A DNA stretch of 64,000 bases from Lophium mytilinum. Taxonomy: Eukaryota. The position numbers and the translations under genes are program-made. The stretch covers positions 2,217,195 to 2,281,194 of the forward strand of contig MU004182.1 of NCBI GenBank assembly GCA_010093605.1, read 5' to 3'. This document shows, one piece after another, positions 35,197 through 56,576 of this stretch (the stretch's first letter is position 1; each line of letters starts with the position of its first letter). The notes under the pieces were generated by a model, which had not been told where the DNA came from, ran no database searches, and worked only from the letters and a program-made list of their open reading frames with translations.

Positions 35197-38100
35197 CTAG
35201 GGTCTGAGCGCCATCGAGGGCTGAATCTTCGCATACAGCTCCGTATCGAGGAAATTGTAATGCGGATCCGAGAAGCAGAACGGCGCTCTAAGAAGTGTCT
35301 CTGCAGTCGGACGATCGATCGGATCACTGTTTGCACGTTAGCATTCTGTCACTTTCCTCCCGCTGATACGGGAAGTCTTCAAGGGGTGCTCACATCGTAA
35401 AGCAGTCATACATGAAACTCAGCGCCTGCGGTGTAATCTGCCCAGACACATCATCCGGAATCGGGGGCGCCTGGTTCAAACTCCCAAGCTTGTAGATCGC
35501 ACCAATAGCCTCCTCTTTACTCCAAGGCCTACGTCCCGCAAACATCTCCAGCACCACGCAGCCAAGCGACCAGATGTCGACTTTGGCGGAGTAGCCCTGG
35601 CCTTGGGAGCGGATGACCTCGGGCGCCATCCAGAAGACGGAGCCTTGCATGCTGTTCGTGACGTCGTTGCCATAGATGTTGTCCGTCTTCTTGGAGATAC
35701 CGAAATCGGAGATCTTGCACGTGCCATCGAGATCCAGAAGAATGTTGTCCGCTTTGAGATCACGATGCAAGATGCCTTCGCGATGGAGATAGCTAAGCCC
35801 GCAGAGTGTCTGGCGGGTCAGACTGCTCACGACGCTCTCCTCAAACTTGCCGTGTTTGCGCAAGCAACTCCCAACGCTACCACCAGGAATGTACTCGAGG
35901 AAGATGGAAATGGAGTACTCCTTGCGCTCACAACCCAGGTATTGCACAATGTTGGGGTGGTCTAGATGCTGCATGGTGTCGATTTCCAGGTCGAGGGATT
36001 TGACCAGCTCCTTCATCTTCGCTTTGTCTTGGCCGGCGACTTTGGGGTTGACTTCGACTTGCTTGACGGCGATGAGCTCACCAGTTGTGATGTTCATACC
36101 GAGGTAGACGCGGCCAAAAGTGCCTTTACCGATGAGTTGACCCTTCATCCATTTGAACGTGGGCTGGCGCTGGGGAACGGGGAGGTGGTCTTGTGGGATA
36201 GGATCGAGCTGGATAAGGCGCGAGCCACGAGGCGGTTTGACTTGCTCGATTTTGGCGTGGAACATCTTAGTGCTCTTACGGCGAATGATGTCGCCGCCGC
36301 CTCGGAGGGTACTGACACGGGCTGGACCGGGAATGGATCGTTTTTCCAAAGGCTGGTATTGGGATTTGACGACATCCCGGATAGACTTGTGGCGGTCGAG
36401 GCCACCTGATTTGCGCAGATTGCGTTGGGCGATGGATTGAAGGCCAACTTCACCACGCTTCAAGCCCACTGGATTGCTTGGGCCCATTGTGTCGCCTTCG
36501 TCAAATGAAGACATCGGCGTGACGGAACGGCTTGGTTTGCTCGAGAAGTCGCTGCTAGGGCCAGTCCCCGGAGAGCTCGGAGGTGAGCTGCCCTCCTCCA
36601 GCATCGGCTGGTCGAGGTTGACGTTAGGGAAAAACTCGTCGAGATGCTCCGCAAGTGCTTCAGGCGGTGGACGATTGGCCCAGACGTCGCTGGCAAAAGA
36701 CTCGCGACGACCAAACTTATTGTTCTCGTCTGGCGATTCGGCCGACCAGGTAGCAGATGCCGCTGATTCGGGGATGCTGTTGCTGTGGCTGCGTTGCGAG
36801 GATTTGGCGGCGTCGCTCTCATTCGCTTCCGTTCCACCGCTTCGTTCGACGGCTGATTTTTCTGGCGATTCGAAAGCAACCTTCGATCGTGATGTCTTCA
36901 AAGTCAACGACGGCCTCTGGCCCTTAGGGCTACCGTCCATCATAGGAGCCTTGCCCTTTGATGGCGGGCTGTCGTCCACCTTGGCTAATGGTTTGGCAAA
37001 TAGACCCTCGTCAGAGTCGTCATCCTCAGAGTCGGCTGGCGCAAGCATTGGCGACTTGTTGAACGCAACATGAGACTCGGTGAAGTCCACCGTTGGGCCC
37101 CATACTGAGGCTCTCGAAGGCTCGCGCGAGAGCTGCGATGATGGCGCATTTCGGGTAGAGGGGCTAATATCTGGCGTCCTCTGCCGCGGAATGTTCTCCT
37201 CGCGCAGTTTACTGATGGCCGGGTTCGCAGGCGTTTGTATAGTAAGGTTCGGCCTTGGAAGAACGAGGTCTCCAGGCACATCTTCCTCATAGTCAGGTAT
37301 TTTGAATGGAATGTTGCCTTTGCTCATGGTGAATGAACCCGGACTGCGAGGAGACCCACCTGGACTGTATCTTCCTGCCTCTCCTGAGCCAAATCCGTTC
37401 TGTTGCAGCACTCTGGTAGAAGGCCGAGTGTTTTCCGTAGCGAAATCTCGGGCGACCGACGCTGGAGGTTGTTTCGGTGGAGAGGCAGCATTTGCTGCAC
37501 CAATATATCCACCCACCCTCCCAGCTCCGACGATAGCTTGCGCGATGCTAGAGAGTCCGGAAGGTCCTTGAGGTATGGCCTTTCGTCGCGCATGTTCTCC
37601 TTCCATCGAAGTTCGCTCCCTTTCTCCAGACGGCCGTTCTCCCGACCTTCGCTTTGCTGACGCCTCGTCTGAGTCGGGCCAGGATTGTCGATCGCGTTTA
37701 TTCTTTGTCAAGGAATTGGCCTTTATCAAGGTGCTACTATCCACCGGCGGTTTTGGCGGCGGTTCGCGTAGCGGCACAAGAGGCTTGCTTTTCCGGTGTT
37801 CTTCGAAAGGCTTCTGCTTGTCTTCGTATGGCGAATCGCGACGATCGTCAAAGTCAATAACACCGTCTCTCTTAATTCCGAAATTACCGTTGACGTCAGG
37901 AGAGTGCTTGTTGAGTTGCTGTCTTTGGTGCACTTGTTTTTGGTATGCCTCCTGTTTGCGCCTTGTCTCTCGGCGATGTTCCTCGGCTGCGGCTTCTAGC
38001 ATTTCCTTTCGCTCAGACTCAGACAAATCGTCAGATGTCTCCCAATTCCGATCACTCTTGTTCAGCCGCTGGGTGATGGCCTCTGGAGTAATTTCCTCTT

Positions 38101-40780
38101 TGTCTTTCTTACCTAGACTGCGAAGCGTGGAGCCCTTATCCGGGACAAGCGTCGATTCCCCTGATCGAGTCACCGGAGACTCCACCTGTGAGTCTGCATT
38201 CAATCTAGCATACGTAGCCTCATCGATCGCCCTGCGAGACGCGGGGAAAGTTCCCGCACCAAATGAGACTCCCAGTCCAGCTGAAGGAGGCATCGACGGT
38301 GGTGGGGTAACAAAAATTCGAAGCTCAGCATAGTTGTTTCCCCACTTATTGGTAGCTTTCAAGAGCTGTTTATCATTCAAAGGTGGCTCATTATCGTGCT
38401 CCTGTTTGGACTGTCCAGGAACGGTCAGGTGTAGACCAACGCCAGGTACATTAGCCAGACCAAGACCATCACAAATGATTTCTCGTAAAGAAGAGGCTGA
38501 CTCCGCACGGGTGATTTCAACAAGCCGGTAGTTCCAGCCATCGGGCGTTACAAAAGCAAACTTCCGTTGGTCTGTGCGTTTGCGTCCTTGGTTCTCTTCT
38601 GCGGCTGATCGCCTAGACGGAGGCCTTTCGTTGAGGGAAGCGTCGCTTGCGTTTAGGGATGATTTCGCGTAAGGTGCGCTTAACGGCAGATGGCGATATC
38701 CAACGGGGCTGGTTGGTGAATCTACACTTGACTCGTCGGGAGACGCATGTGTATCGTCCTTTTTCTTGTCCCTCCGCATGAACTTTGGTAAGAAGGTCTT
38801 GTGCTCTTTAGCACTCGAAGGTACTTCTCCGCTGTGGTGTCTTGCTGAATCCGGTCGAGGTGCGTCGACTCCGTTCCTACGAGGCTCGTTCCTGCTCTCG
38901 GTTCGACTCTCCATTCTTGTCTCCATACGGGTGTCGATTGATCTTCCAGAAGGTGGACCTGAGCCTATCGTTGAGCCGGCTGTTGCAATATTTGAGAGGT
39001 TCGACTCAGAGCTATTGGCTCTATGGTGACTGTAATACCGAGGAGCATTAGTGCTCAGTGACGTAGTTAAGCCATTTGAGTTCGTAGCCAAACGAGCGGA
39101 AGGAAGTCCAGGACTTTGTTGTGGACTGGGTCCCCTCATAGCTTCTCGGTAATTTCCAAACTCTCCAGAAGTATTTGGGCTATGCTTTCTGGAATTGTTG
39201 CCATCCAAATTACGCAGCACGTCTTTGGAGTACGCGCTCCGATTATGTACTTCGTTATAATCCGGAGGCTGCCCGAGGGTAGGAACCGGGACTGTGAAAT
39301 TCCGTTGCGTGGATATTCGCCTAGGAGCGACTGCAGGAGAGTTCATGCCATATGACAGTGGCATTTGTTTACCAGGACTGTCTTCGCCTCCCCCAGCAGT
39401 CGTAGGGGTGGACCCAAAGTCCATGCGGCCACCAAGATACGGCGAGTTCTCCAGAGTCCCTTCGGTTCCTGCACTTGCGAGGGTCATGGAACCACGTCGG
39501 GCAGGTAGTCGAGCATTGGCTGAGCTCCCAGTCTCCACAATAGCCCGAATGAGTCGTCGAAGCCTTCTTCCTTCGTCACGTTCTCGGCTCTGATCCCATC
39601 CAGTACCGCTCGCAGTGCATTGTTTTGCCAGTTCCGGAAATATGACCTTATGCATGACAGCAACATTTCCCTTGCTGCCATGACCTCTTCCGATCTCGAG
39701 GAAGTTTGCGCCATACATGTTGAGAGTCTTGAACGTATCTTGCCAATCTTTGGAAAATCCGTTACTGGAAAGCCAAATTTGCACACGGTCTGGGGGCCAT
39801 TGAATGCTCGCGTCACGGGGAGATATTGGCGTAGGCGCGACAGACTGCGGATGTTCGTAGATGCTGCCATGGGGTTGCGGGGGTTGCGGGTTCTGCAAAG
39901 TTGCGGTGGGAGGTCCAGGAATTTGGTACTCCTGGGCTTCTCGAGTAGGGATATTCAGATGTGTGCGCGTGCTCGGTGTCGGCGGAGGGCCATATCCTTG
40001 ATTTTGTCCATACTGAGTAGTCTCGGCGGGTGTAGGAAACCCCGTACTGGAGTGTTCTGTGGTTGCAGAATATGTGGCTGGGTCGTTGGGGTTGTAATAA
40101 GCAGGATCCTGATACCTCGATGGAGTGTGTAAAGGGGGAATGCCTACTCCAGGCCCAAATGACTCGCCAAAGGGAATATACGTCGCGGACGTCAGCGGCT
40201 GGTCCGGCGGAGGAGGTAACTGCTGGTAGGATTGATACGCATTTGGATTATACGCTACATGGCCAGTATTTGTCGGAGTTGGATATTGTTGTCGAGGAGC
40301 GCCCCAGCCGTAGTTTTGTGTTTGGGGAGGTGGAGGAGGTATAGGCATGCCATGTTGTATTTGTGACGGCCTCGGCGGAGGGGGAGGCAAGGGCATTCCA
40401 TACGCGGTCGGTGTGGAGTTTTGCTGAGGAGGAGGCGGGGGGATATTATGTGGATGCATCATTGATGAAGGCTCTTGGCGGTAGTTTTGTTGGCGCTGGA
40501 GATAATTGGAGTCTGCGTAGGTATGCGCGCGGGGCCGAGGGCTCGTAGACCCTTTCGGAGGGGCGTTCGAGTATGAAGGATAAGGCGACCCAGCGCTAGG
40601 CGGTATGAGTAGTGAAGATGACGAGTTGGCCAGGCCCGGAACGTCGTTGAGGACCAGGTCTGATGGTACTGCAAGCTGAGCACGGGCGGTAGAAAGAGGA
40701 GTCGGGGGACCACGTCGTTCAGTTCTGTCAGAGGCGTTTGATCGATTGGACGAAGAGCGCTGTCGCGACCCAATTGTCAT
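35197..40780 (-). CDS. bck1: MAP kinase kinase kinase of the cell-wall-integrity pathway
   Basis: Large exon 40780-35394 plus last exon ~35327-35197; GKGTFGRVY, HRDLKADN, DFGISK, MQGSVFWMAPE; FASDVWANRPP and LDEFFPNVNLD motifs. Confidence 0.95.
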
Positions 40781-48772: not shown

Positions 48773-51548
48773 ATGGATCATCTCGTTCTTCCAGAGGGAG
48801 CAAAGCCATGGATGATGTTGGCCTACGACTGTCCAGAGACTGAACATTACGAAAACATACCTGATAAGGGCTTCGCATACTCCGAGTTCTACAAGAGAGT
48901 TGGTTGGGGCTACGATGAAGTATGGGCCCAGCCTCAGCAAAGCGAGGACCTCCTCGGAGGAGTGGTAGAAGGCGCAGAGGATAAGATTCGCGAGCCCTGG
49001 GAACTCGACAAATTCTTCCAAACATGGCTTTTCTTCGGCCTCATCATCGAGGTGTTCGCTCTTAGCGGTATCGAAGTAAAGACTAGTGATTTCCTGGCTC
49101 CTATTGTGCGAAAAGCTGTCCATAAGCCTCAGACGGCGCACCTAATCACGACCAGCAAGCTGCCGGACTTGATCAAGCAATGGAGGGAGAAGCATCAAGC
49201 CTCAAGAGACGAAACGGTTTTTGAAGCGGCTCTGAAGCTTCTTGACCATGTGGGAAAGATCGTGGACTACCATTGTGCGGGCGGTAAAGACCATCGGTCC
49301 ATCCACCAGTATGGAAAAGTCCTGTGGTCGGTCTCGGACGAAACAACAACGGCCATTATCGCGGTTGCTTTCACGCTCCGCAAGGCTGCATATGCCATCT
49401 ACAATAAGCCAGGTAACGGAGACCGATGGCCGGTTGCCAACTCCATGCTCTTGTATCAGCGCATCCAACGGAAGTGGTGCAAGTCCGATGCAGCGATGAT
49501 AATGGAAGACTTTGACATTGATGGCCAAAATTACATCGCTGCGGCGCAGGGCCGTACACTCGAAGAACTTGACCGCCATTACGCCTGCACTGATCGCTCG
49601 TGCGAAGCAAGAGTGGCTGACGGTACTTACGAGACTCAACACGACCCGGAATGCCATGAGGATGATTACGAACCCGAGCCAAGATTTCTGGGGCATGTGT
49701 TTCCTGAATACGGCAAAAGACCTGCATCCCTTCGAGAAGCAATTAAACATACCATGGATGCGGGCCACCTGCCCGTTTTGAGATACGATGCCGAGCAGAA
49801 GGGCCTTCGAACCTACGGACACCTAAAGGATTCATATTCGGAGGAGAGCTCCAAAGTCCCTCCCTTTGTTGCAATTTCCCACGTGTAAGTCCACAAGACC
49901 CTATTTAGGGACTCGCCGGCTTACTCTCGATAGATGGGCGGATGGAAAGGGAAACCCTTTCGACAACTCTCTTCCTTACTGTCAATTAGAAATGATTCAG
50001 AAGCTGGTTGACAAACTTTGCGCTGAAAGTTTGCCGGCAACAAAGCAACACTCTAGCCCAGGTTTCTGGATGGATACCCTTTGCTGTATTGTTGGCACCG
50101 ATGACGAAAGCAAATCCTACAAGAAGAAGAGCATCCAGTCAATGCGAGAGATTTACGGCGAAAGCGTAGCAGTATTGATCATAGATCCATGGCTGATGTC
50201 GATCCCATCGACAGCTTCAGTCAACGAGATATGCTACCGAATATACGCGTCGGGATGGTCTCGCCGTCTCTGGACCCACCAAGAAGGTTTCCTTGCCCGC
50301 GAAGTTTACTACCAGCTCCAGGACAAGCCACTGAAGCTGCCCGATGTTGATGAGCTGGCCAAAGAATTCCAGAAGAAGATGGCCTATCAAGGTTATCCAA
50401 TCGGATTTCCACTCCAGGCCTCGGGGAAAACTAGCTTCTACTATACCACCGTGAAGACGATTGTGAACGGCATCCAAGAAGGGCGCATTCCTCAAGACAA
50501 CAAGTGGATCTTGTACGGACATTTGGCTGATTCGCTGGGATACCGCTCGACCACGAATATCGACGATGAACTCCTCTGTGTAGCATCTGTCATTGGGTTA
50601 ACTGTCAAGACCTATGCCAAACTAGAGGTTGAGAAGAGCCGAAAGCAAACAGCAGAGCTGCGAATGAGAGCATTCCTGGAAGAGATCGGCCGTTTCCGCC
50701 AGGGCATCATCTTCAACAATTACAAGCGGCTTACGATTCCCGGGTTCCGCTGGGCGCCAGTGTCCTTGCTGGGCCACCGATCTTCAGGGCTAGGAGACCT
50801 CGACGATACAAAAGACTCCAAGATCGAGGACTACAGCCATTTAGCCCTCAACGATATACATGTCGAGGTTAGCGCTCTGAACATGAAAGTGAACCTCAAC
50901 AAGTACATACCTCGCAAACTGGGCATAGATCGCCGCCTCATGTCCATGGTCTTTAATGATAAGACAATTCTTCTTCCGACAGTCGGCCTGCCGGTCGACT
51001 ATCCAGGTTATATCATCAGGTTTTCTTCGAAGACGCATGGCCTGACTATTAATATGGCTGAGCGAAGATTCGGTCTCACCTACTCTCCCCTCCCGACTGC
51101 CGCCTTCTTCAAAGCTCCGGCAATGCCAACAATGCCGAAAGTTCCTTCATTTGGCAAGGTCCCCACTCTTGGGAAAAGCAAGCTGGGTTCTTTTGGAAAG
51201 GCCGCCCCTGCTCAAGTTGTCGAAGAAGTTCAGAAATCTCCAGTCCTCGAACAAGTCGCCGAGGTCGTATCGTACAAATATGTAGTATTTGTCGCTGAGA
51301 ACGATGTTGAGTGGGCGTATGACAGAGAGTACGTCTTGATCGTGCAGAGGCCGTTAGGCGAGACCAGCTCACAGGAGTTCCTGGCCATGGTAGGGCGCAA
51401 ATCAGTCGGACCTGGTAAACGGTACTGGGTCCAATCTTTGTGCTCGGCGATAGTCCGTGCCAAGAGACCAACTGATGACCGCAAAGTTGATGCGGGGATT
51501 GATTTCCTTGATGTTTCGCAGGCGAGTACGAACTGGGTGGTCACCTAA
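48773..51548 (+). CDS. HET-domain (heterokaryon incompatibility) protein
   Basis: Exons 48773-49884 and 49934-51548; HET motifs FVAISHVWADG.GN, FWMDTLC, MREIY, WSRRLWTHQEG; N-terminal FFQTWLFFGL. Confidence 0.92.
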
Positions 51549-51981
51549 GTTCAATTTTTCGAGGGGATAGGAAATTTCTAAGGGATAACTCACTTGACGA
51601 ACAATTGGCAAGCATTCTCTACGTCTATGATGAATTTCGAAACTGTTCTAATGTCGACTGTGTCACTATAAGCCTAATTATAGCCCCCCTTTGGTCGCTT
51701 GGTTTTTCCCGTGGTCTTTGAGATGGTTCCGAGGGTGAGGTGATGGTAAATGAGAAGCTAGGGGATGAAGCTTTCAGCGGGAATGAACCTAGATTGGAGG
51801 CGACTCTTGAAGTGTTAAATGAACGGTGAGGAAAAGGCATCGCGCGCTCCAGCAAAGTGGATGTAACCCATTGTAATAGACTTACTTTGATAAGACAGGT
51901 TTCTTACAAGGTTCAGAAGGGTTTTCGTGCGGCGCAGCACTAGGTCCGCTCCTTGAACGCTCAGCCTCCTTTGGCTCAAAA

Positions 51982-53470
51982 ATGCGTGTCGTCCGCACTG
52001 CCCCATTTCTGCAGCGCTCGAACTTTACTCAACTTCCTCTGCCTGGATTGTTCTGTCGCCGATCCCATATTTCTACGAAGGCCGACTTCGACACAATCGA
52101 AGAGCAAACAACACCCCGGTACAACCAAAGACACTACTATCCCGTCAACATCGGCGACATCTTGAAAGACCAGTACCGGGTCATCGCAAAACTGGGCTAT
52201 GGCGCATACTCTACAGTATGACTTGCGCGGAATGAGAGGTTCGCATCCAACACGCTCATCTTTAGTCGTTATTAAATTTGAGCTAGGTCTATGGAATACA
52301 CCGCCCTCAAGACCTGCATACAAGACGATACAGAGACTTCGCCTATCTTGAATGAAGTCGAGAAGCTTCAGCTACCTGCCAAGGCGCTACAACCCCCTTT
52401 GGTGCCTGGGAGTGAGGATCATGTTGGCCCGCTCTTTACGCGTCTTGCGCGTGACATCTTTGAAATCCAGGGACCAAGTGGCCGTCATTATTGTATCGCT
52501 TTCAAATGCCATGAAAACAGCGTTCGCACGTTGCAAGAAAGATCTCGTGATGCCAAGTTGCCAAAACTTCTAGTGCGATCTGCAGTACATCGCCTTTGTT
52601 CTCCCTGAATTGGCTGCACGCGGTCTGCAGCGTTGTGCACACTGGTATGTGCTTACTTGCAATTCTTCATTAAGCAGTAATCCAACAAATTGAAGATATT
52701 TCGCCGCAAAACGGTTTAATGGCGACCGAGGACGATACCATATTCCATGATATTGAGAGCCAAGAGTCGAAAGATCCGAGTCCACCTCTCGTGAGCGACA
52801 AAGGACCTATTTATCATTCTCACCCAACTATGCTAGAGCTTTCTGGCCATCCTATTCTTACTGATTTTGGGGACATGCGGTTGGTTGAGCCAATGAGCAC
52901 CGATTGGGCTATGCCTGACATATCTCGAGCTCCAGAGGTGCTGCTAAAGCTCCCTTGGACTGACCCCGTTGATATCTGGTCGGTGGGCGTTATGGTCAGA
53001 GATTTGACGCTCGAATTTTCAATTTATTACTAATACCTGTTAACAGACTCTTGAACTTCTTGAAGGAAAGAACCTTTTCGATCCTGTTGATCGTGAGAAT
53101 CACCAATACGTGCTTCCATTAGCACTAGCACAGTACATCGGCTACCTCGGGCCTCCATCACTAGAGATGGCCAAGCGAAGCCCGCTTTTCTCCCAGTATT
53201 TTGATGACCAAGGTAAGCTACCTCTCCTCCATGAGCTTAATTCACTTGTATCGACTTCCAACGTCTGACCACCACCAGGCAGCTAGACCTATGACTTTCC
53301 AATCCCCCAAACATCGTTCGAGGACTTTGCCACAGTCATCCCTCCCGGCGAAGAGAAAAACTTGTTCCTATAGTATTTCCGAAAGCAGCTAACTTGGGAT
53401 CCGGAAGTGAGAGCACAGTCAGCAGACCTTCTCACCGACGAGTGGCTTATGAAGCCCAATGATATCATGG
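51982..53470 (+). pseudogene. SRPK/Sky1-like protein kinase pseudogene
   Basis: YYPVNIGD..KLGYGAYSTV*LAR (TGG>TGA at 52219-52221); LTDFG, RAPEV..W..VDIWSVG; frameshift near 52605; in-frame TAG near 53371. Confidence 0.85.
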
Positions 53471-54283
53471 GGCTCGCGTTTCCATCACAGGAAGAGCCCG
53501 AGCCGGTCTCGTGATTCCCTTGCGTAAGGGACGGCTAGCGGCCGTCACTGTCTCTTCTCTATCCAAAGTTATGCCCGACTCTAGCAGTCCTAGAACATGT
53601 ACCAATAAGAAACTTCTTGCCAAACCTGGATCCTGTGGGGTGACCAAGAAGACGCAGTACGCCTCTCGAGATACACAGTGATGTGCCTTGCTCGAAAGTT
53701 CGTAAAGACATGCCCTGCTCGAAAGCCAGGGATGTCAGTCGCTGTCGGCAAACCGGGCCTCGAGATGATGCCACCGACGTTATGATACTTCTGCGGATTC
53801 CTGTCTTTATACGAGATGCTTTCGATGTGACAATCTTGTGCGCGCCAAGTTGCTTGTCCGGTTTCGAAACGGTTCATCCTCTCACCTAGCATATCCAGCT
53901 CCGAAGTAAGCGGATACCAAGCCACGATTTTTTAGAACCTGCAGCAGTCGATGTTGTGAGAGTACCGTCGTACCTTTCGTGCGCGCCTGTAGTTGGTGTC
54001 CGATGCCGTTGGAGAGGCTACTGTAGCGACACCTATTATTGGTACAAAGCAGCTTGTAAGACTCGTGGCCTGGGATAATCAACCTAAGACACCTTGCTAG
54101 AACTCGAAACTTCGAGCACTTTCATCTAAGAGGAGTAAGCAAAGTTAAGCTGGGTTAAGTAGACCGGAGGAGACCTTAGTTGAAGGCTCAGTCGGGCCAG
54201 AGCCGACCTTGGCCTCAGTAAAACACCGATTTATCACACCCCTCTCCGTCCCAGCTCTTCTCAGCCAAAGAACAAAAAAAGAC

Positions 54284-54529
54284 AAAAAGTAAAGACTTAC
54301 TTATATAGACAGCCCCCAACCTGACTGTCCTAGCGGATCCCATTGAAATCACTTCAGGAACGATCCGCCTCCACTACGAGTAACCATGCAGCCTCTTATC
54401 GAGTGCAATTACATGAAACCCGACACTGACAGCTCCGGGAATCGAACCCGGGCCGTCAGGCAACGTATGGCCTGCACCCACCAGGGTGGACAACCTTTCG
54501 GAAGCTGCTGAATACATTGGAGAGCTGCC
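54284..54529 (-). ncRNA. Putative Pol III structured RNA with a tRNA-like 5' domain (54427-54529)
   Basis: Acceptor stem GGCAGCT/AGCTGTC, T-arm CCGGG-TTCGATT-CCCGG (perfect B box), non-canonical D and anticodon arms, downstream hairpins, T5 and T7 runs. Confidence 0.6.
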
Positions 54530-55317
54530 AAAATTAAATGGTCTTTAAGGGTTTAGGCGAGGTCCTCACAGTAAATCTCACACGTGATGTCTCACCACCA
54601 ACCATGACGTCTCCCCTGGGGATTTCTCTAGTGGGATCGCGGGCCACTTCACCTCACCCAACTCCGTTTCACCTCTAATCTTTACACTTTATCAGCTGTC
54701 TTTTGTATTGAAGGCACTCCCGCGGGCATTTAGAACACGACCAGCTCGCTGTACCTTATCTCACCTCCGACATTTTACCTGTTTTGATCATTGGAGGAAA
54801 TCTAAATCGGTTGGGCCAATTGCGCGTGCCAACGAAACCCATATATCAATCCCCACCGCCGCTTTCCAGCCGGAGATTGCTTGCTCCCTGGTGTTCTGAG
54901 CTGTCTACTTCACTTCCGCCTCTTTCTCCAGTACGAACGTTTCAAAGGAAGACGAATGATGGCATAGAGAATAGAGAGCTCCAATTGGAAACGACTAACC
55001 GTTCTATTCACCTCTCACCTACCCCGACTTACAAATATGCGTCTATAATCTACTACGAACAAAAGAGAAAACTGACGCTGATGCAAGACTATTCTGACTG
55101 GTCGAGCCCAGACCCCTATTGATGCCCCGGAGCCCTCCAAAAAACGCCTCTACCAGCCTATCCCAACCCAGACAAAAGAAATAATGCGTAGGGTATGTAA
55201 ATCATGACCATAGACCTGGCAGCGCGCAACTTCCGAACCCATTACCGTCGACGAACGTAAACATAGATATGCCTCTTAACCTCTCTCTCTAACGCAAAGA
55301 CATGGGGTAGGACGCAC

Positions 55318-56576
55318 TTAAGCACTCGCTACCCCCAATCCCTCGCACAACCTCGCCCGCCACATCCCGCAAACCTCCTCGAAACCGCCGACAACGCCAG
55401 CGCACACTTTCTCCGCTTCCCGCTCGCTGAGCCGCTTCTCCCACCCGCCGCGCTCGATGAACCGCACGCCTTCTTCCCGTGCTTCGTCTTCTTTACGCCA
55501 TTCGCCTACGGCGATTTGGACGCTCTTTAGGCGGCGTGTGGCGACGGCTGTGGCCTGGCGGCTCATGTGTAGTGAATCAGAGAGGTAGGAGAGGGTTTGG
55601 AGGAGGTCGCGGGTCTGGTTTGTGAGTTGGGCGAGGGCGTAGAGGGGTTCGGAAGGGGGTTGAGGGAGGAGTTCCAGGGTCGTGGTTATGAGGGGGAGGA
55701 GGGTGTCGATGGTGTCTGGATCGAGCATGCCGGTGGTGATGGCGAGTGGGGAGAGGAGGGAGGAGGTCAGGGAGGTCAGGGTGCGGGTTTGGTGGGTGAG
55801 GTGGGATCCTAGAGCTGAGTGGGCTGTTGTGAGTCTGTGATAGCGTTAGCATCCGGTATATACGTATAGTGTTCGCGACTGCTAGAAACTTGAACTGTCT
55901 CCAGGAGATTGAAAGACGAAGAAGAGTACACATACCGCGTAGCACCGCTCTCCACCCCCGCCTGACTCCCCAGGTCCCTCAACTGCTCCGTCACCCGTCC
56001 CACAACCCCATCCGCCGCACTCCCATTCATCTCCATGCCCCGCCTGGCCAGACTCTCCACCGCCGCCATACGCGCCTCCAGCCCCGCCGATATCCCCTCG
56101 CTGGTCTCCAGGTCCGAGTCGTCCCCATAGTCGCTCCCATCATACATCGACTCCTTCCGGCGATGTCTGCTATTTCGCAACGCGCGGGCCGGACTCAGAG
56201 TCTTCTCCGCTACCGGCGACGACGCGAGCACGACACCGGAGTCGCGAGGCACGCCGTTGACTCCATTTAGGTGAATTTCGTCGCCATTGACGCTTTGTGC
56301 GAGTGGTTGGTCCTCCTCTTCGTAGCCGTCCCCCTCCTCGCCGTCGTCCCATGCATCGGCCAGTTCGTCTGCGAGACTCCCGAGCCCTTCTCCGCCTCCA
56401 TCTCCACCTACGTCGCCGTAGTCTTGAAAGCCGTGTGACGAGCGGGGCGTTACGGGGCTGTATCCTGCGCCCGAGGAGCGGCGTCGGGAGTGCGTGTTCG
56501 AGTTGATGTCGATGCTGGAGGGGTGGCGGCGGTGTGAGATTGGGCGGCTGGCGGGGGTTCGTGGTGGTGAGGACAT
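55318..56576 (-). CDS. Hypothetical protein with conserved-looking motifs, 2 exons
   Basis: Exon 1 ends at ESGATR with GTATGT donor; exon 2 LTTAHSALGSHL...VVGGFEEVCGMWRARL; GLGSLADELADAW motif. Confidence 0.75.

What the first reader, a model, noticed from the sequence alone, without database searches (positions are those of the whole stretch)
54284..54529. Aberrant tRNA-like domain fused to a three-hairpin tail: candidate Pol III ncRNA
Seen on the minus strand: a 7-bp acceptor stem (GGCAGCT/AGCTGTC, one G-U pair), discriminator A, a perfect T-arm/B box (CCGGG TTCGATT CCCGG), a 5-nt variable loop and a 5-bp stem CAGGC/GCCTG. It is not a normal tRNA. The anticodon-like loop has 8 nt (CATACGTT), the D-like hairpin is CACCC-TGGT-GGGTG, and about 34 extra nt with their own hairpin (CAGCTT-CCGAA-AGGTTG) lie between the acceptor stem and the D arm. 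No oligo-T follows the cloverleaf. Instead ~140 nt fold into three further hairpins (GTAATTGCACTC..GAG..TGCA.GGTTAC; GCGGATC..GATCCGC; GGACAGTC..GGCTGTCT) before T5/T7 runs at 54284-54288 and 54274-54280. Inference: a tRNA-mimic RNA, or a tRNA-like leader acting as internal promoter and processing signal for a downstream RNA. I saw no U6, SRP or RNase P/MRP consensus motifs.
Basis: partly seen in the sequence, partly recalled or inferred. Interest (0 to 1): 0.8.

Follow-up and report, generated by a model that had tools for sequence, protein, structure and literature searches.

The report
Low-copy tRNA-derived SINE-like fungal repeat
This is a real but degenerate tRNA-derived sequence fused to a structured tail, and it is most likely one copy of a small family of short mobile-element-like repeats in a filamentous fungus, not a unique new RNA gene.

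Summary
They include an exact B box/T arm, a 3' acceptor strand, D-like and anticodon-like hairpins, three tail hairpins and T5/T7 runs. It is not a working tRNA. Rfam finds nothing at gathering score, and ARAGORN gives only a weak 83-nt "tRNA-Pro(GGG)" with a 2-bp D stem. In the predicted ensemble, the 3' acceptor strand prefers a local partner over either candidate 5' strand.

DNA contigs of the probable source genome show that parts of the tail recur at three or more other loci. One paralogue also carries a T loop upstream, and two are followed by T runs. A 9-nt direct repeat (8 of 9 identical) brackets a 236-nt unit, 54529..54294.

An RNA run's contig covers 54284-54504 and bridges the T runs, but its strand is unknown. 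No homologue was found outside this genome.

My best reading is a low-copy tRNA-derived SINE-like retroposon (confidence about 0.5). The main rival is a maintained Pol III ncRNA family with a tRNA-like leader (about 0.25). Interest is moderate to low.

The parts
54530..54538 (-). Upstream copy of the 9-nt direct repeat TTTAATTTT. It is a candidate target-site duplication. Alternatively it is a TATA-like AT-rich element 21-29 nt upstream of ARAGORN's 5' end.
   Evidence: One search gives the empirical chance that such a flanking repeat occurs: 1.3% of all positions, and 13 of 1593 AT-rich 9-mers.
54427..54529 (-). tRNA-derived head of 103 nt. It holds acceptor strands, a 20-nt stretch with a second GCAGCT, a D-like hairpin with a TGGT loop, an anticodon-like hairpin with an 8-nt loop, a 5-nt variable stretch, the T arm and discriminator A.
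   Evidence: sequence; ARAGORN, 54509..54427; Rfam below threshold; energies and pair probabilities.
54438..54448 (-). Exact B box GGTTCGATTCC inside the T arm (54435-54451).
   Evidence: 1 match in the window against 0.11 expected. T stem probability is 1.00.
54503..54509 (-). Second copy of GCAGCT (AGCAGCT). This is the alternative 5' acceptor strand that ARAGORN uses.
54380..54412 (-). Tail hairpin 1. It lies inside the 50-nt patch 54365-54414, which is nearly identical in one paralogue.
   Evidence: records 5 and 7: 1 other letter, 3 gap letters; tail fold.
54333..54368 (-). Tail hairpin 2 (GCGGATC...GATCCGC). Its loop region 54347-54379 is the most repeated piece of the family.
   Evidence: p 0.95 and 0.99; 36-nt unitig at depth 617 against 169. 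By my reading of the loose ends, one paralogue keeps a 7-bp stem through one double and one single change.
54307..54330 (-). Tail hairpin 3 (GGACAGTC...GGCTGTCT). It is shared with two paralogues.
   Evidence: records 2 and 3: 2 and 4 other letters over 41 and 36 nt; forms in the tail alone; not in the full-length ensemble.
54294..54306 (-). 3' end of the unit, ATATAAGTAAGTC, holding GTAAGT. Two paralogues show GGTAAGT or GGTAAAT at the same place.
   Evidence: table 7 (loose ends at 54307 and 54312, read on the minus strand).
54285..54293 (-). Downstream copy of the 9-nt direct repeat (TTTACTTTT, 8 of 9 identical). It overlaps the T5 run.
54274..54288 (-). T5 (54288-54284) and T7 (54280-54274) runs. 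They are candidate Pol III terminators, supplied by the repeat and the flank.

Best explanation
The stretch 54529..54294 (minus strand, 236 nt) is one copy of a small dispersed family, roughly five copies, of tRNA-derived SINE-like retroposons in a filamentous ascomycete.

The head descends from a tRNA, probably one with a long extra arm. It keeps the parts that matter for RNA polymerase III and for tRNA-end processing: an exact B box in an intact T arm, and a 12-13-bp acceptor/T-type helix. The D and anticodon regions have decayed, and a 20-nt stretch with a second GCAGCT has been inserted. The tail is a tRNA-unrelated body plus a 3' hairpin module, shared in different combinations with the other copies.

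Inferred mechanism: TFIIIC binds the B box, and Pol III starts at or near the first acceptor base. With no U4 inside the unit, Pol III reads through head and tail and stops at T runs in the T-rich target DNA. The RNA was copied back into T-rich sites by a LINE-type reverse transcriptase that recognises the 3' hairpin and short tail, leaving the 9-nt duplication.

Shown: the motifs, the extra copies, the flanking repeat, and RNA cover of unknown strand. Inferred: Pol III transcription, the start and end of the RNA, and mobility.
For: - tRNA origin: exact B box in a perfect T arm, and an ARAGORN hit.
- Not a functional tRNA and not any Rfam family.
- Dispersed partial copies in the probable source genome. 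Records 2, 3 and 5 lie in contigs of 6112, 1330 and 1573 nt. A 36-nt unitig has depth 617 against 169 for single-copy DNA. The extra depth in bins 54242-54509 is fully explained by these four records, by my arithmetic.
- Modular sharing typical of SINE families. One paralogue shares 54365-54414 and, in its loose end read on the minus strand, has the T-loop letters TCGATTCC 21 nt upstream of the patch, with a different acceptor strand. Two others share only 54307/54312-54347.
- A 9-nt direct repeat (8 of 9 identical) abuts the first acceptor base and the last base after GTAAGTC. A repeat like this occurs at 1.3% of all window positions, and at 13 of 1593 AT-rich ones.
- Each of the three copies seen at the 3' end is followed by a different T-rich stretch: T5+T7, T8 and T6. 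This fits insertion into T-rich targets.
- Low-copy (one to about five copies), 140-493-bp tRNA-related SINE-like elements with degenerate A boxes are described in Aspergillus fumigatus (PMC5063351, abstract and passages).
Against: - There is no A-rich or simple-repeat 3' tail, and no LINE partner was seen. There is none in the window, and no genome is held to search.
- The flanking repeat is short, AT-rich and imperfect. After allowing for my freedom in choosing its length and mismatches, its p-value is perhaps 0.01-0.05.
- Conservation between copies is very uneven. A 50-nt patch has 1 mismatch, while the adjacent spacer matches at about 10 of 21 positions. Hairpin 2 keeps pairing through a double change. 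Both come from my reading of the loose ends, and the pattern could mean selection on an RNA rather than a decaying repeat.
- Copy number is only about five.
- Only 30 letters of each paralogue flank are visible, so the paralogue heads and their own flanking repeats could not be checked.
- The RNA contig of run X3 bridges the T runs and continues into the neighbouring + strand kinase mRNA. The paralogue contigs in X3 also run 255 or more letters past their T runs. So what is seen as RNA may be Pol II transcripts of either strand, not a Pol III product.
Confidence: 0.5

Rival explanations
1. A maintained, non-mobile family of Pol III ncRNA genes. A non-decoding tRNA-like head supplies the internal promoter and an RNase P/RNase Z handle. 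The tail of about 140 nt, or small RNAs cut from it, is the functional product. Known parallels are the Neurospora tRNA-linked milR-4 precursor and the gammaherpesvirus tRNA-miRNA units. This is essentially the first reader's reading.
For: - There is no U4 between head and tail, and T runs follow.
- The T loop and the distance from T loop to the conserved patch (22 against 21 nt) are kept in a paralogue whose spacer sequence differs (loose ends, my alignment by eye).
- A 50-nt patch has 1 mismatch next to saturated divergence, and hairpin 2 shows one double and one single compensating change.
- The whole unit is more stable than shuffles (z -3.9 to -4.1).
- Pol III transcription of about 170-nt hairpin RNAs with upstream TATA-like elements and T clusters, and an RNase Z-dependent tRNA-linked milRNA, are documented in Neurospora (PMC3547838, passages).
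- TTTAATTTT lies 21-29 nt upstream of ARAGORN's 5' end, the kind of place where a TATA-like element would be expected. That expected position is recalled knowledge.
Against: - There is no cross-species conservation data at all.
- The tail hairpins have 19 or fewer imperfect pairs, which is short for Dicer substrates.
- The modular, partial sharing among copies and the flanking 9-nt repeat fit a retroposon better.
- The RNA contigs are not bounded by the T runs.
Confidence: 0.25
2. The region is simply part of Pol II transcripts: either a long 3' UTR of the + strand kinase gene, or a minus-strand lncRNA starting near 54505-54529. The tRNA-like repeat is carried passively and has no Pol III activity today.
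For: - X3 record 14 is one RNA contig that runs from the spliced kinase exons (joints 52993/53046 and 53210/53277, GT..AG) without a break to 54504, bridging the T5/T7 runs.
- The kinase reading frame ends by 53284-53515, so about 1 kb of non-coding RNA follows it.
- The paralogue contigs in X3 extend 255 or more letters on both sides.
Against: - A contig cannot show strand, and it cannot show a single transcript; two overlapping transcripts would assemble into the same contig.
- An exact B box in an intact T arm is the main determinant of TFIIIC binding (established knowledge, recalled), so some Pol III activity is likely.
- This reading explains the RNA cover but not the origin of the family.
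Confidence: 0.12
3. A dead tRNA pseudogene that merely lies next to an unrelated short genomic repeat. On this reading, head and tail are not one unit.
For: - The head fails all tRNA models.
- At 85% likeness, only tail segments, not the head, are matched by other contigs.
Against: - The one paralogue whose upstream flank is visible also has T-loop letters at nearly the same distance from the conserved patch. Head and tail therefore travel together in at least 2 of 2 copies that could be checked.
- The 9-nt repeat brackets head plus tail as one unit.
Confidence: 0.08

Closest known systems
Low-copy tRNA-related SINE-like elements of filamentous fungi (AfuSINE2 of Aspergillus fumigatus; also Mg-SINE, Foxy and nrs1 as listed in PMC5063351)
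   Same: - tRNA-related 5' region with a good B box and a degenerate A box.
- A tRNA-unrelated body.
- Size within the 140-493 bp range.
- One to a few copies per genome.
- Short flanking direct repeats of 4-14 bp.
- Located in gene-rich, transcribed DNA (PMC5063351, abstract and passages).
   Different: - There is no sequence evidence of relationship; none was available to test.
- The paper says the AfuSINE2 heads could not be folded into cloverleaves, whereas this head can (-39.3 kcal/mol).
- No A/T-rich or trinucleotide-repeat tail is present here.
- No LINE partner was identified.
Neurospora crassa milR-4 precursor (tRNA-Ala-linked, Pol III-transcribed, RNase Z-dependent) and the murine gammaherpesvirus 68 tRNA-miRNA units
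   Same: A tRNA or tRNA-like module is followed, with no terminator in between, by hairpins and then a T cluster. Both examples are in a filamentous ascomycete (PMC3547838, passages). The viral case is mentioned in that paper's discussion.
   Different: - milR-4 lies between two genuine tRNA-Ala genes, whereas this head is not a valid tRNA.
- The hairpins here are short.
- No small-RNA, Pol III or RNase Z data exist for this locus.
- This element is multi-copy, with a flanking duplication.
mascRNA/menRNA tRNA-like elements (Rfam RF01684)
   Same: Both are tRNA-like folds with a good acceptor/T-arm half and a reduced anticodon half. This family gave the best sub-threshold Rfam hit (18.6 bits).
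   Different: - The score is far below the gathering score of 42.5.
- mascRNA is cut from the 3' end of a vertebrate Pol II lncRNA (recalled), whereas this is fungal and has a 3' tail rather than a 5' lncRNA.
Yeast RPR1 and snR52 genes, whose tRNA-like A/B-box leaders are removed
   Same: An internal Pol III promoter lies in a 5' module upstream of the mature RNA.
   Different: - Those leaders precede single-copy, known RNAs (RNase P RNA and a C/D snoRNA).
- The tail here matches no Rfam family even at E up to 10, and I found no C/D or H/ACA box arrangement by eye.

Membership tests
Canonical tRNA (Rfam RF00005 / ARAGORN) | Score at or above the family threshold with a full cloverleaf: 7-bp acceptor, 3-4-bp D stem, 5-bp anticodon stem, and a 7-nt loop with U33. 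| tested here: not met
   - No gathering-level hit.
- No tRNA row at E up to 10. One lower-scoring match from the same clan was suppressed in each call.
- ARAGORN's tRNA-Pro(GGG) has an A-C mismatch at pair 1-72 and only 2 D-stem pairs.
Canonical tRNA | T arm with G53, T54-T55-C56, A58 and C61, stacked on the acceptor stem. | tested here: met
   CCGGG-TTCGATT-CCCGG is directly followed by AGCTGTC and A. T stem probability is 1.00.
tRNA-Sec (RF01852) | Gathering score of 47 bits, a 9/4 or 8/5 acceptor/T arrangement, a 6-bp D stem, a UCA anticodon and a long extra arm. | tested here: not met
   The score is 18.6 bits (E 0.12 in a 126-nt search). The anticodon arm is deleted in the alignment and the acceptor pairs are flagged as non-standard. 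There is no TCA in the loop.
mascRNA-menRNA (RF01684) | Gathering score of 42.5 bits. | tested here: not met
   18.6 bits.
tRNA-derived SINE | [quoted passage not shown] | tested here: inconclusive
   The B box is exact. I found no convincing A box by eye; the TGGT loop of the D-like hairpin supplies only the GG.
tRNA-derived SINE | Several dispersed copies in the genome. | tested here: met
   Other contigs of runs X1 and X2 match 54307-54347, 54312-54347 and 54365-54414. A 36-nt unitig over 54347-54379 has about 3.6 times single-copy depth. Only partial copies are visible, about five in total.
tRNA-derived SINE | Target-site duplication flanking the unit. | tested here: inconclusive
   TTTAATTTT and TTTACTTTT abut 54529 and 54294. 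The background rate is 1.3%, and 13 of 1593 for AT-rich 9-mers. The longer flank repeats are at chance level. The paralogues' flanks could not be read.
tRNA-derived SINE | A 3' tail that is A-rich, a simple repeat, or shared with a partner LINE. | tested here: not met
   The unit ends ...ATATAAGTAAGTC, with no A run. There is no LINE-like match in the window. A partner LINE elsewhere in the genome is not testable, because no genome is held.
tRNA-linked Pol III precursor (milR-4 / TMER type) | A tRNA(-like) module and downstream hairpins in one Pol III unit: no terminator between them and a T cluster after them. | tested here: met
   No U4 between 54529 and 54289. T5 and T7 follow.
tRNA-linked Pol III precursor (milR-4 / TMER type) | Pol III dependence, RNase Z cleavage and small RNAs from the hairpins. 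| not testable with these tools
   Only unstranded contigs of one RNA run were available.

The most novel reading that the evidence does not exclude
The roughly five copies are a selectively maintained fungal Pol III ncRNA gene family. A non-decoding tRNA-like head acts as internal promoter and as an RNase P/RNase Z handle, releasing a structured RNA of about 140 nt, or small RNAs made from it. This would be a cellular counterpart of the gammaherpesvirus tRNA-miRNA units and a generalisation of Neurospora milR-4. The near-identical 50-nt patch would be the functional core.
Probability: 0.22. Interest if true: 0.6.

Novelty: new member of a known kind. Interest (0 to 1): 0.3.

Why it matters
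If it is a SINE-like retroposon, it adds one more low-copy tRNA-derived element to the sparse catalogue for filamentous fungi. It also marks a place where a B box (a TFIIIC site) sits between two convergently or tandemly transcribed genes. That is useful for annotation but not surprising.

It would matter more if the uneven conservation between copies reflects selection. Fungi would then have a family of tRNA-led Pol III RNAs beyond the single Neurospora milR-4 case. The 50-nt patch 54365-54414 would be the first thing to probe.

Tried and rejected
- **Whole-genome search:** no genome is held for this window.
- **Second copy in the window:** blastn with word size 7 found none. The best other hits were 11-20 nt with E of 2 or more.
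- **Earlier-findings look-ups:** nothing to show in any of the four.
- **Metagenome scan:** I searched for the B-box core, a 10-35-nt gap, then an 11-mer of the conserved patch. It returned 5 loci. Read by eye, all 5 are T-loop-like sequences followed by the 11-mer by chance. L001 and L005 are the same sequence. None continues into the tail, so 0 of 5 are homologues. I ran no alignment on them.
- **Two scans of prokaryote genome contigs with tail motifs:** 0 matches, as expected for a fungal element.
- **Sequencing-run search:** no RNA holder is listed on record. X3 is labelled RNA only as a guess. I treat it as RNA because three GT..AG/CT..AC joints occur in X3 alone, and the skipped parts have no depth.
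- **X3 cover upstream of the element:** X3 has no listed contig over 54505-54650, and its record 14 stops at 54504 without a loose end. This is one study only, and a hole proves nothing, so I do not use it to place a transcription start.
- **Other classes considered and dropped:**
  - Coding exon: there are stops in all three minus-strand frames of the conserved patch, and the paralogue differs by a net 1-nt indel.
  - MITE: the unit's ends carry no terminal inverted repeat, judged by eye.
  - LTR primer-binding site: wrong strand and order, and no TGG.
  - SRP, RNase P or MRP RNA, snoRNA: no Rfam hit on the tail at E up to 10, and no box motifs by eye.
- **Longer flanking repeats D1 and I1:** at chance level.
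- **Origin of the head:** I recall that the acceptor stem resembles fungal tRNA-Ser and that the D-like arm resembles tRNA-Sec. I could not test either with a fetched reference, so neither is used as evidence.
- **Paper search:** the listing held nothing relevant.

Full report
**Setting**

The window looks like nuclear DNA of a filamentous ascomycete.
- One ORF has a HET domain (26.7 bits against a cutoff of 22.5), and another has DUF3336 plus patatin.
- An RNA run shows introns of 52, 66 and 101 nt with GT..AG ends.
- GC content is about 0.47-0.57.
- No whole genome is held.

That it is a filamentous ascomycete is my inference.

**Observation**

Coordinates are in the parts list.
- The B box GGTTCGANTCC occurs once in the window, against 0.11 expected; 11 of 100 shuffles had at least one match. 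It sits in a perfect 5-bp T stem, directly followed by a 7-nt acceptor-type strand.
- The 246-nt stretch is more stable than shuffles (z -3.9; 1 of 200 as good). So are the head (z -2.9) and the tail (z -3.0).
- No U4 occurs inside 54529..54289. T5 and T7 follow.

**Is it a tRNA?**

No.
- Rfam at gathering scores finds nothing in the whole window.
- Permissive scans give only partial T-arm hits. The best are mascRNA at 18.6 bits (gathering 42.5) and tRNA-Sec at 18.6 bits (gathering 47).
- ARAGORN calls an 83-nt tRNA-Pro(GGG) at 54509..54427. It uses a second GCAGCT as the 5' strand and has an A-C first pair, two D-stem pairs and a 17-nt extra arm.
- The 3' acceptor strand therefore has three possible partners: 54529-54523, 54509-54503, and the adjacent CUGACGGC.
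- In the partition function the local partner wins (p 0.98 and 0.71) and both long-range acceptor pairings have p of about 0.
- The robust parts are the T arm, the D-like hairpin with its TGGT loop, and tail hairpin 2.

The "top half" of a tRNA (acceptor/T helix and a possible elbow) survives. The decoding half does not.

**Copies elsewhere in the genome**

I laid the contigs of two DNA runs, X1 and X2, on 52500-56500. These runs hold the stretch completely and may be the source of this DNA. One contig spans the whole stretch, and further contigs match only pieces of the tail:
- 54307-54347: 2 other letters, in a 6112-nt contig.
- 54312-54347: 4 other letters, in a 1330-nt contig.
- 54365-54414: 1 other letter and 3 gap letters, in a 1573-nt contig.
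- 54347-54379: a 36-nt unitig at depth 617 against 169.

By my arithmetic, these four records account for all the extra depth in bins 54242-54509. There are therefore at least three other loci, and the unitig depth suggests one or two more.

I read the 30-letter loose ends on the minus strand.
- The paralogue with the 50-nt patch has the T-loop letters TCGATTCC 21 nt upstream of the patch (22 nt here). Its acceptor-type strand is different, and the spacer matches at only about 10 of 21 positions.
- Downstream it keeps a 7-bp hairpin-2 stem through one double and one single change.
- The two paralogues that share hairpin 3 continue with GGTAAGT or GGTAAAT and then T8 or T6.

These readings of the loose ends are mine, made by eye. 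Only 30 letters per flank are visible.

**Flanking repeat**

TTTACTTTT (54293-54285) abuts the last base after GTAAGTC.
- Across the window, a 9-mer directly upstream of a position recurs with at most one mismatch 200-300 nt downstream at 1695 of 127364 positions (1.3%). For AT-rich 9-mers it is 13 of 1593.
The real p-value is therefore perhaps 0.01-0.05.
- The repeat defines a 236-nt unit, 54529..54294. It makes the T5 run part of the duplicated target.
- Longer repeats reported are at chance level.

**RNA**

Run X3 is labelled RNA only as a guess. I treat it as RNA because three splice-type joints occur in X3 alone and the skipped parts have zero depth.
- Its 2448-nt contig joins the spliced exons of the + strand kinase gene to an unbroken stretch 53277-54504.
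- It therefore covers 54284-54504 of the element and bridges the T runs.
- The kinase frame ends by 53284-53515, so about 1 kb of non-coding RNA is covered.
- Contigs show neither strand nor single transcripts. This could be a long 3' UTR, a minus-strand RNA overlapping it, or both.
- The same paralogue loose ends appear in X3, running 255 or more letters beyond the match. So the paralogues are also in RNA, and that RNA is not bounded by their T runs.

**Interpretation**

The following features fit a low-copy tRNA-derived SINE-like retroposon:
- a tRNA-derived head with an intact B box;
- a tRNA-unrelated body;
- a 3' hairpin module shared in different combinations among about five dispersed copies;
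- T-rich DNA of differing sequence after each copy;
- a bracketing 9-nt repeat.

Such elements are described in Aspergillus fumigatus: 140-493 bp, one to a few copies, degenerate A boxes, 4-14-bp duplications (PMC5063351, abstract and passages).

Against this reading stand four points:
- there is no A-rich or repeat tail;
- no LINE partner was found;
- the copy number is small;
- conservation is strikingly uneven, which could mean selection.

The main rival is a maintained Pol III ncRNA family with a tRNA-like leader. It has a fungal precedent in Neurospora milR-4 (PMC3547838, passages). On present evidence the rival is not excluded.

**Comparative evidence**

None could be obtained.
- Four look-ups of earlier findings were empty.
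- Two prokaryote-genome scans gave 0 matches.

No statement about conservation beyond this genome is therefore possible.

**Verdict**

The element is best filed as a new member of a known kind, a tRNA-derived SINE-like repeat, with confidence of about 0.5. There is a 0.2-0.25 chance that it is a genuine tRNA-led Pol III RNA family.

Noticed in passing
window 51900-53520 (+): This is a protein kinase gene (Pkinase hit on the 52719-53033 ORF). RNA contigs of X3 confirm two introns, 52994-53045 and 53211-53276. The spliced form reads ...FDDQGS and then hits a stop 7 nt after the second joint. A further in-frame stop lies in the kinase-like C-terminal frame. The gene may be a pseudogene, or the contig may represent an alternative splice form.
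   Followed up: partly
window 54651-56500 (-): A minus-strand gene has a 101-nt intron (55835-55935, CT..AC on the + strand) and the highest RNA contig depth in the laid stretch (312). Its ORFs, 55809-56576 and 55318-55728, have no Pfam family.
   Followed up: no
window 55294-55383: Several very short contigs (49-135 nt) of X2 and X3, with 2-6 other letters, pile up here, and both runs' long contigs break here. This looks like a second short repeat or a polymorphic spot.
   Followed up: no
window 49866-51548 (+): A 560-aa ORF has an N-terminal HET (heterokaryon incompatibility) domain. This is the main clue that the window comes from a filamentous ascomycete.
   Followed up: no
window 35390-40780 (-): An unbroken 1796-aa ORF has a C-terminal protein kinase domain (Pkinase, E 8e-60). 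No family was called for its first roughly 1500 residues.
   Followed up: no
window 54503-54529 (-): The two GCAGCT copies lie 20 nt apart. The stretches after each copy resemble each other loosely. This suggests a 20-nt duplication or insertion just after the acceptor 5' strand.
   Followed up: partly
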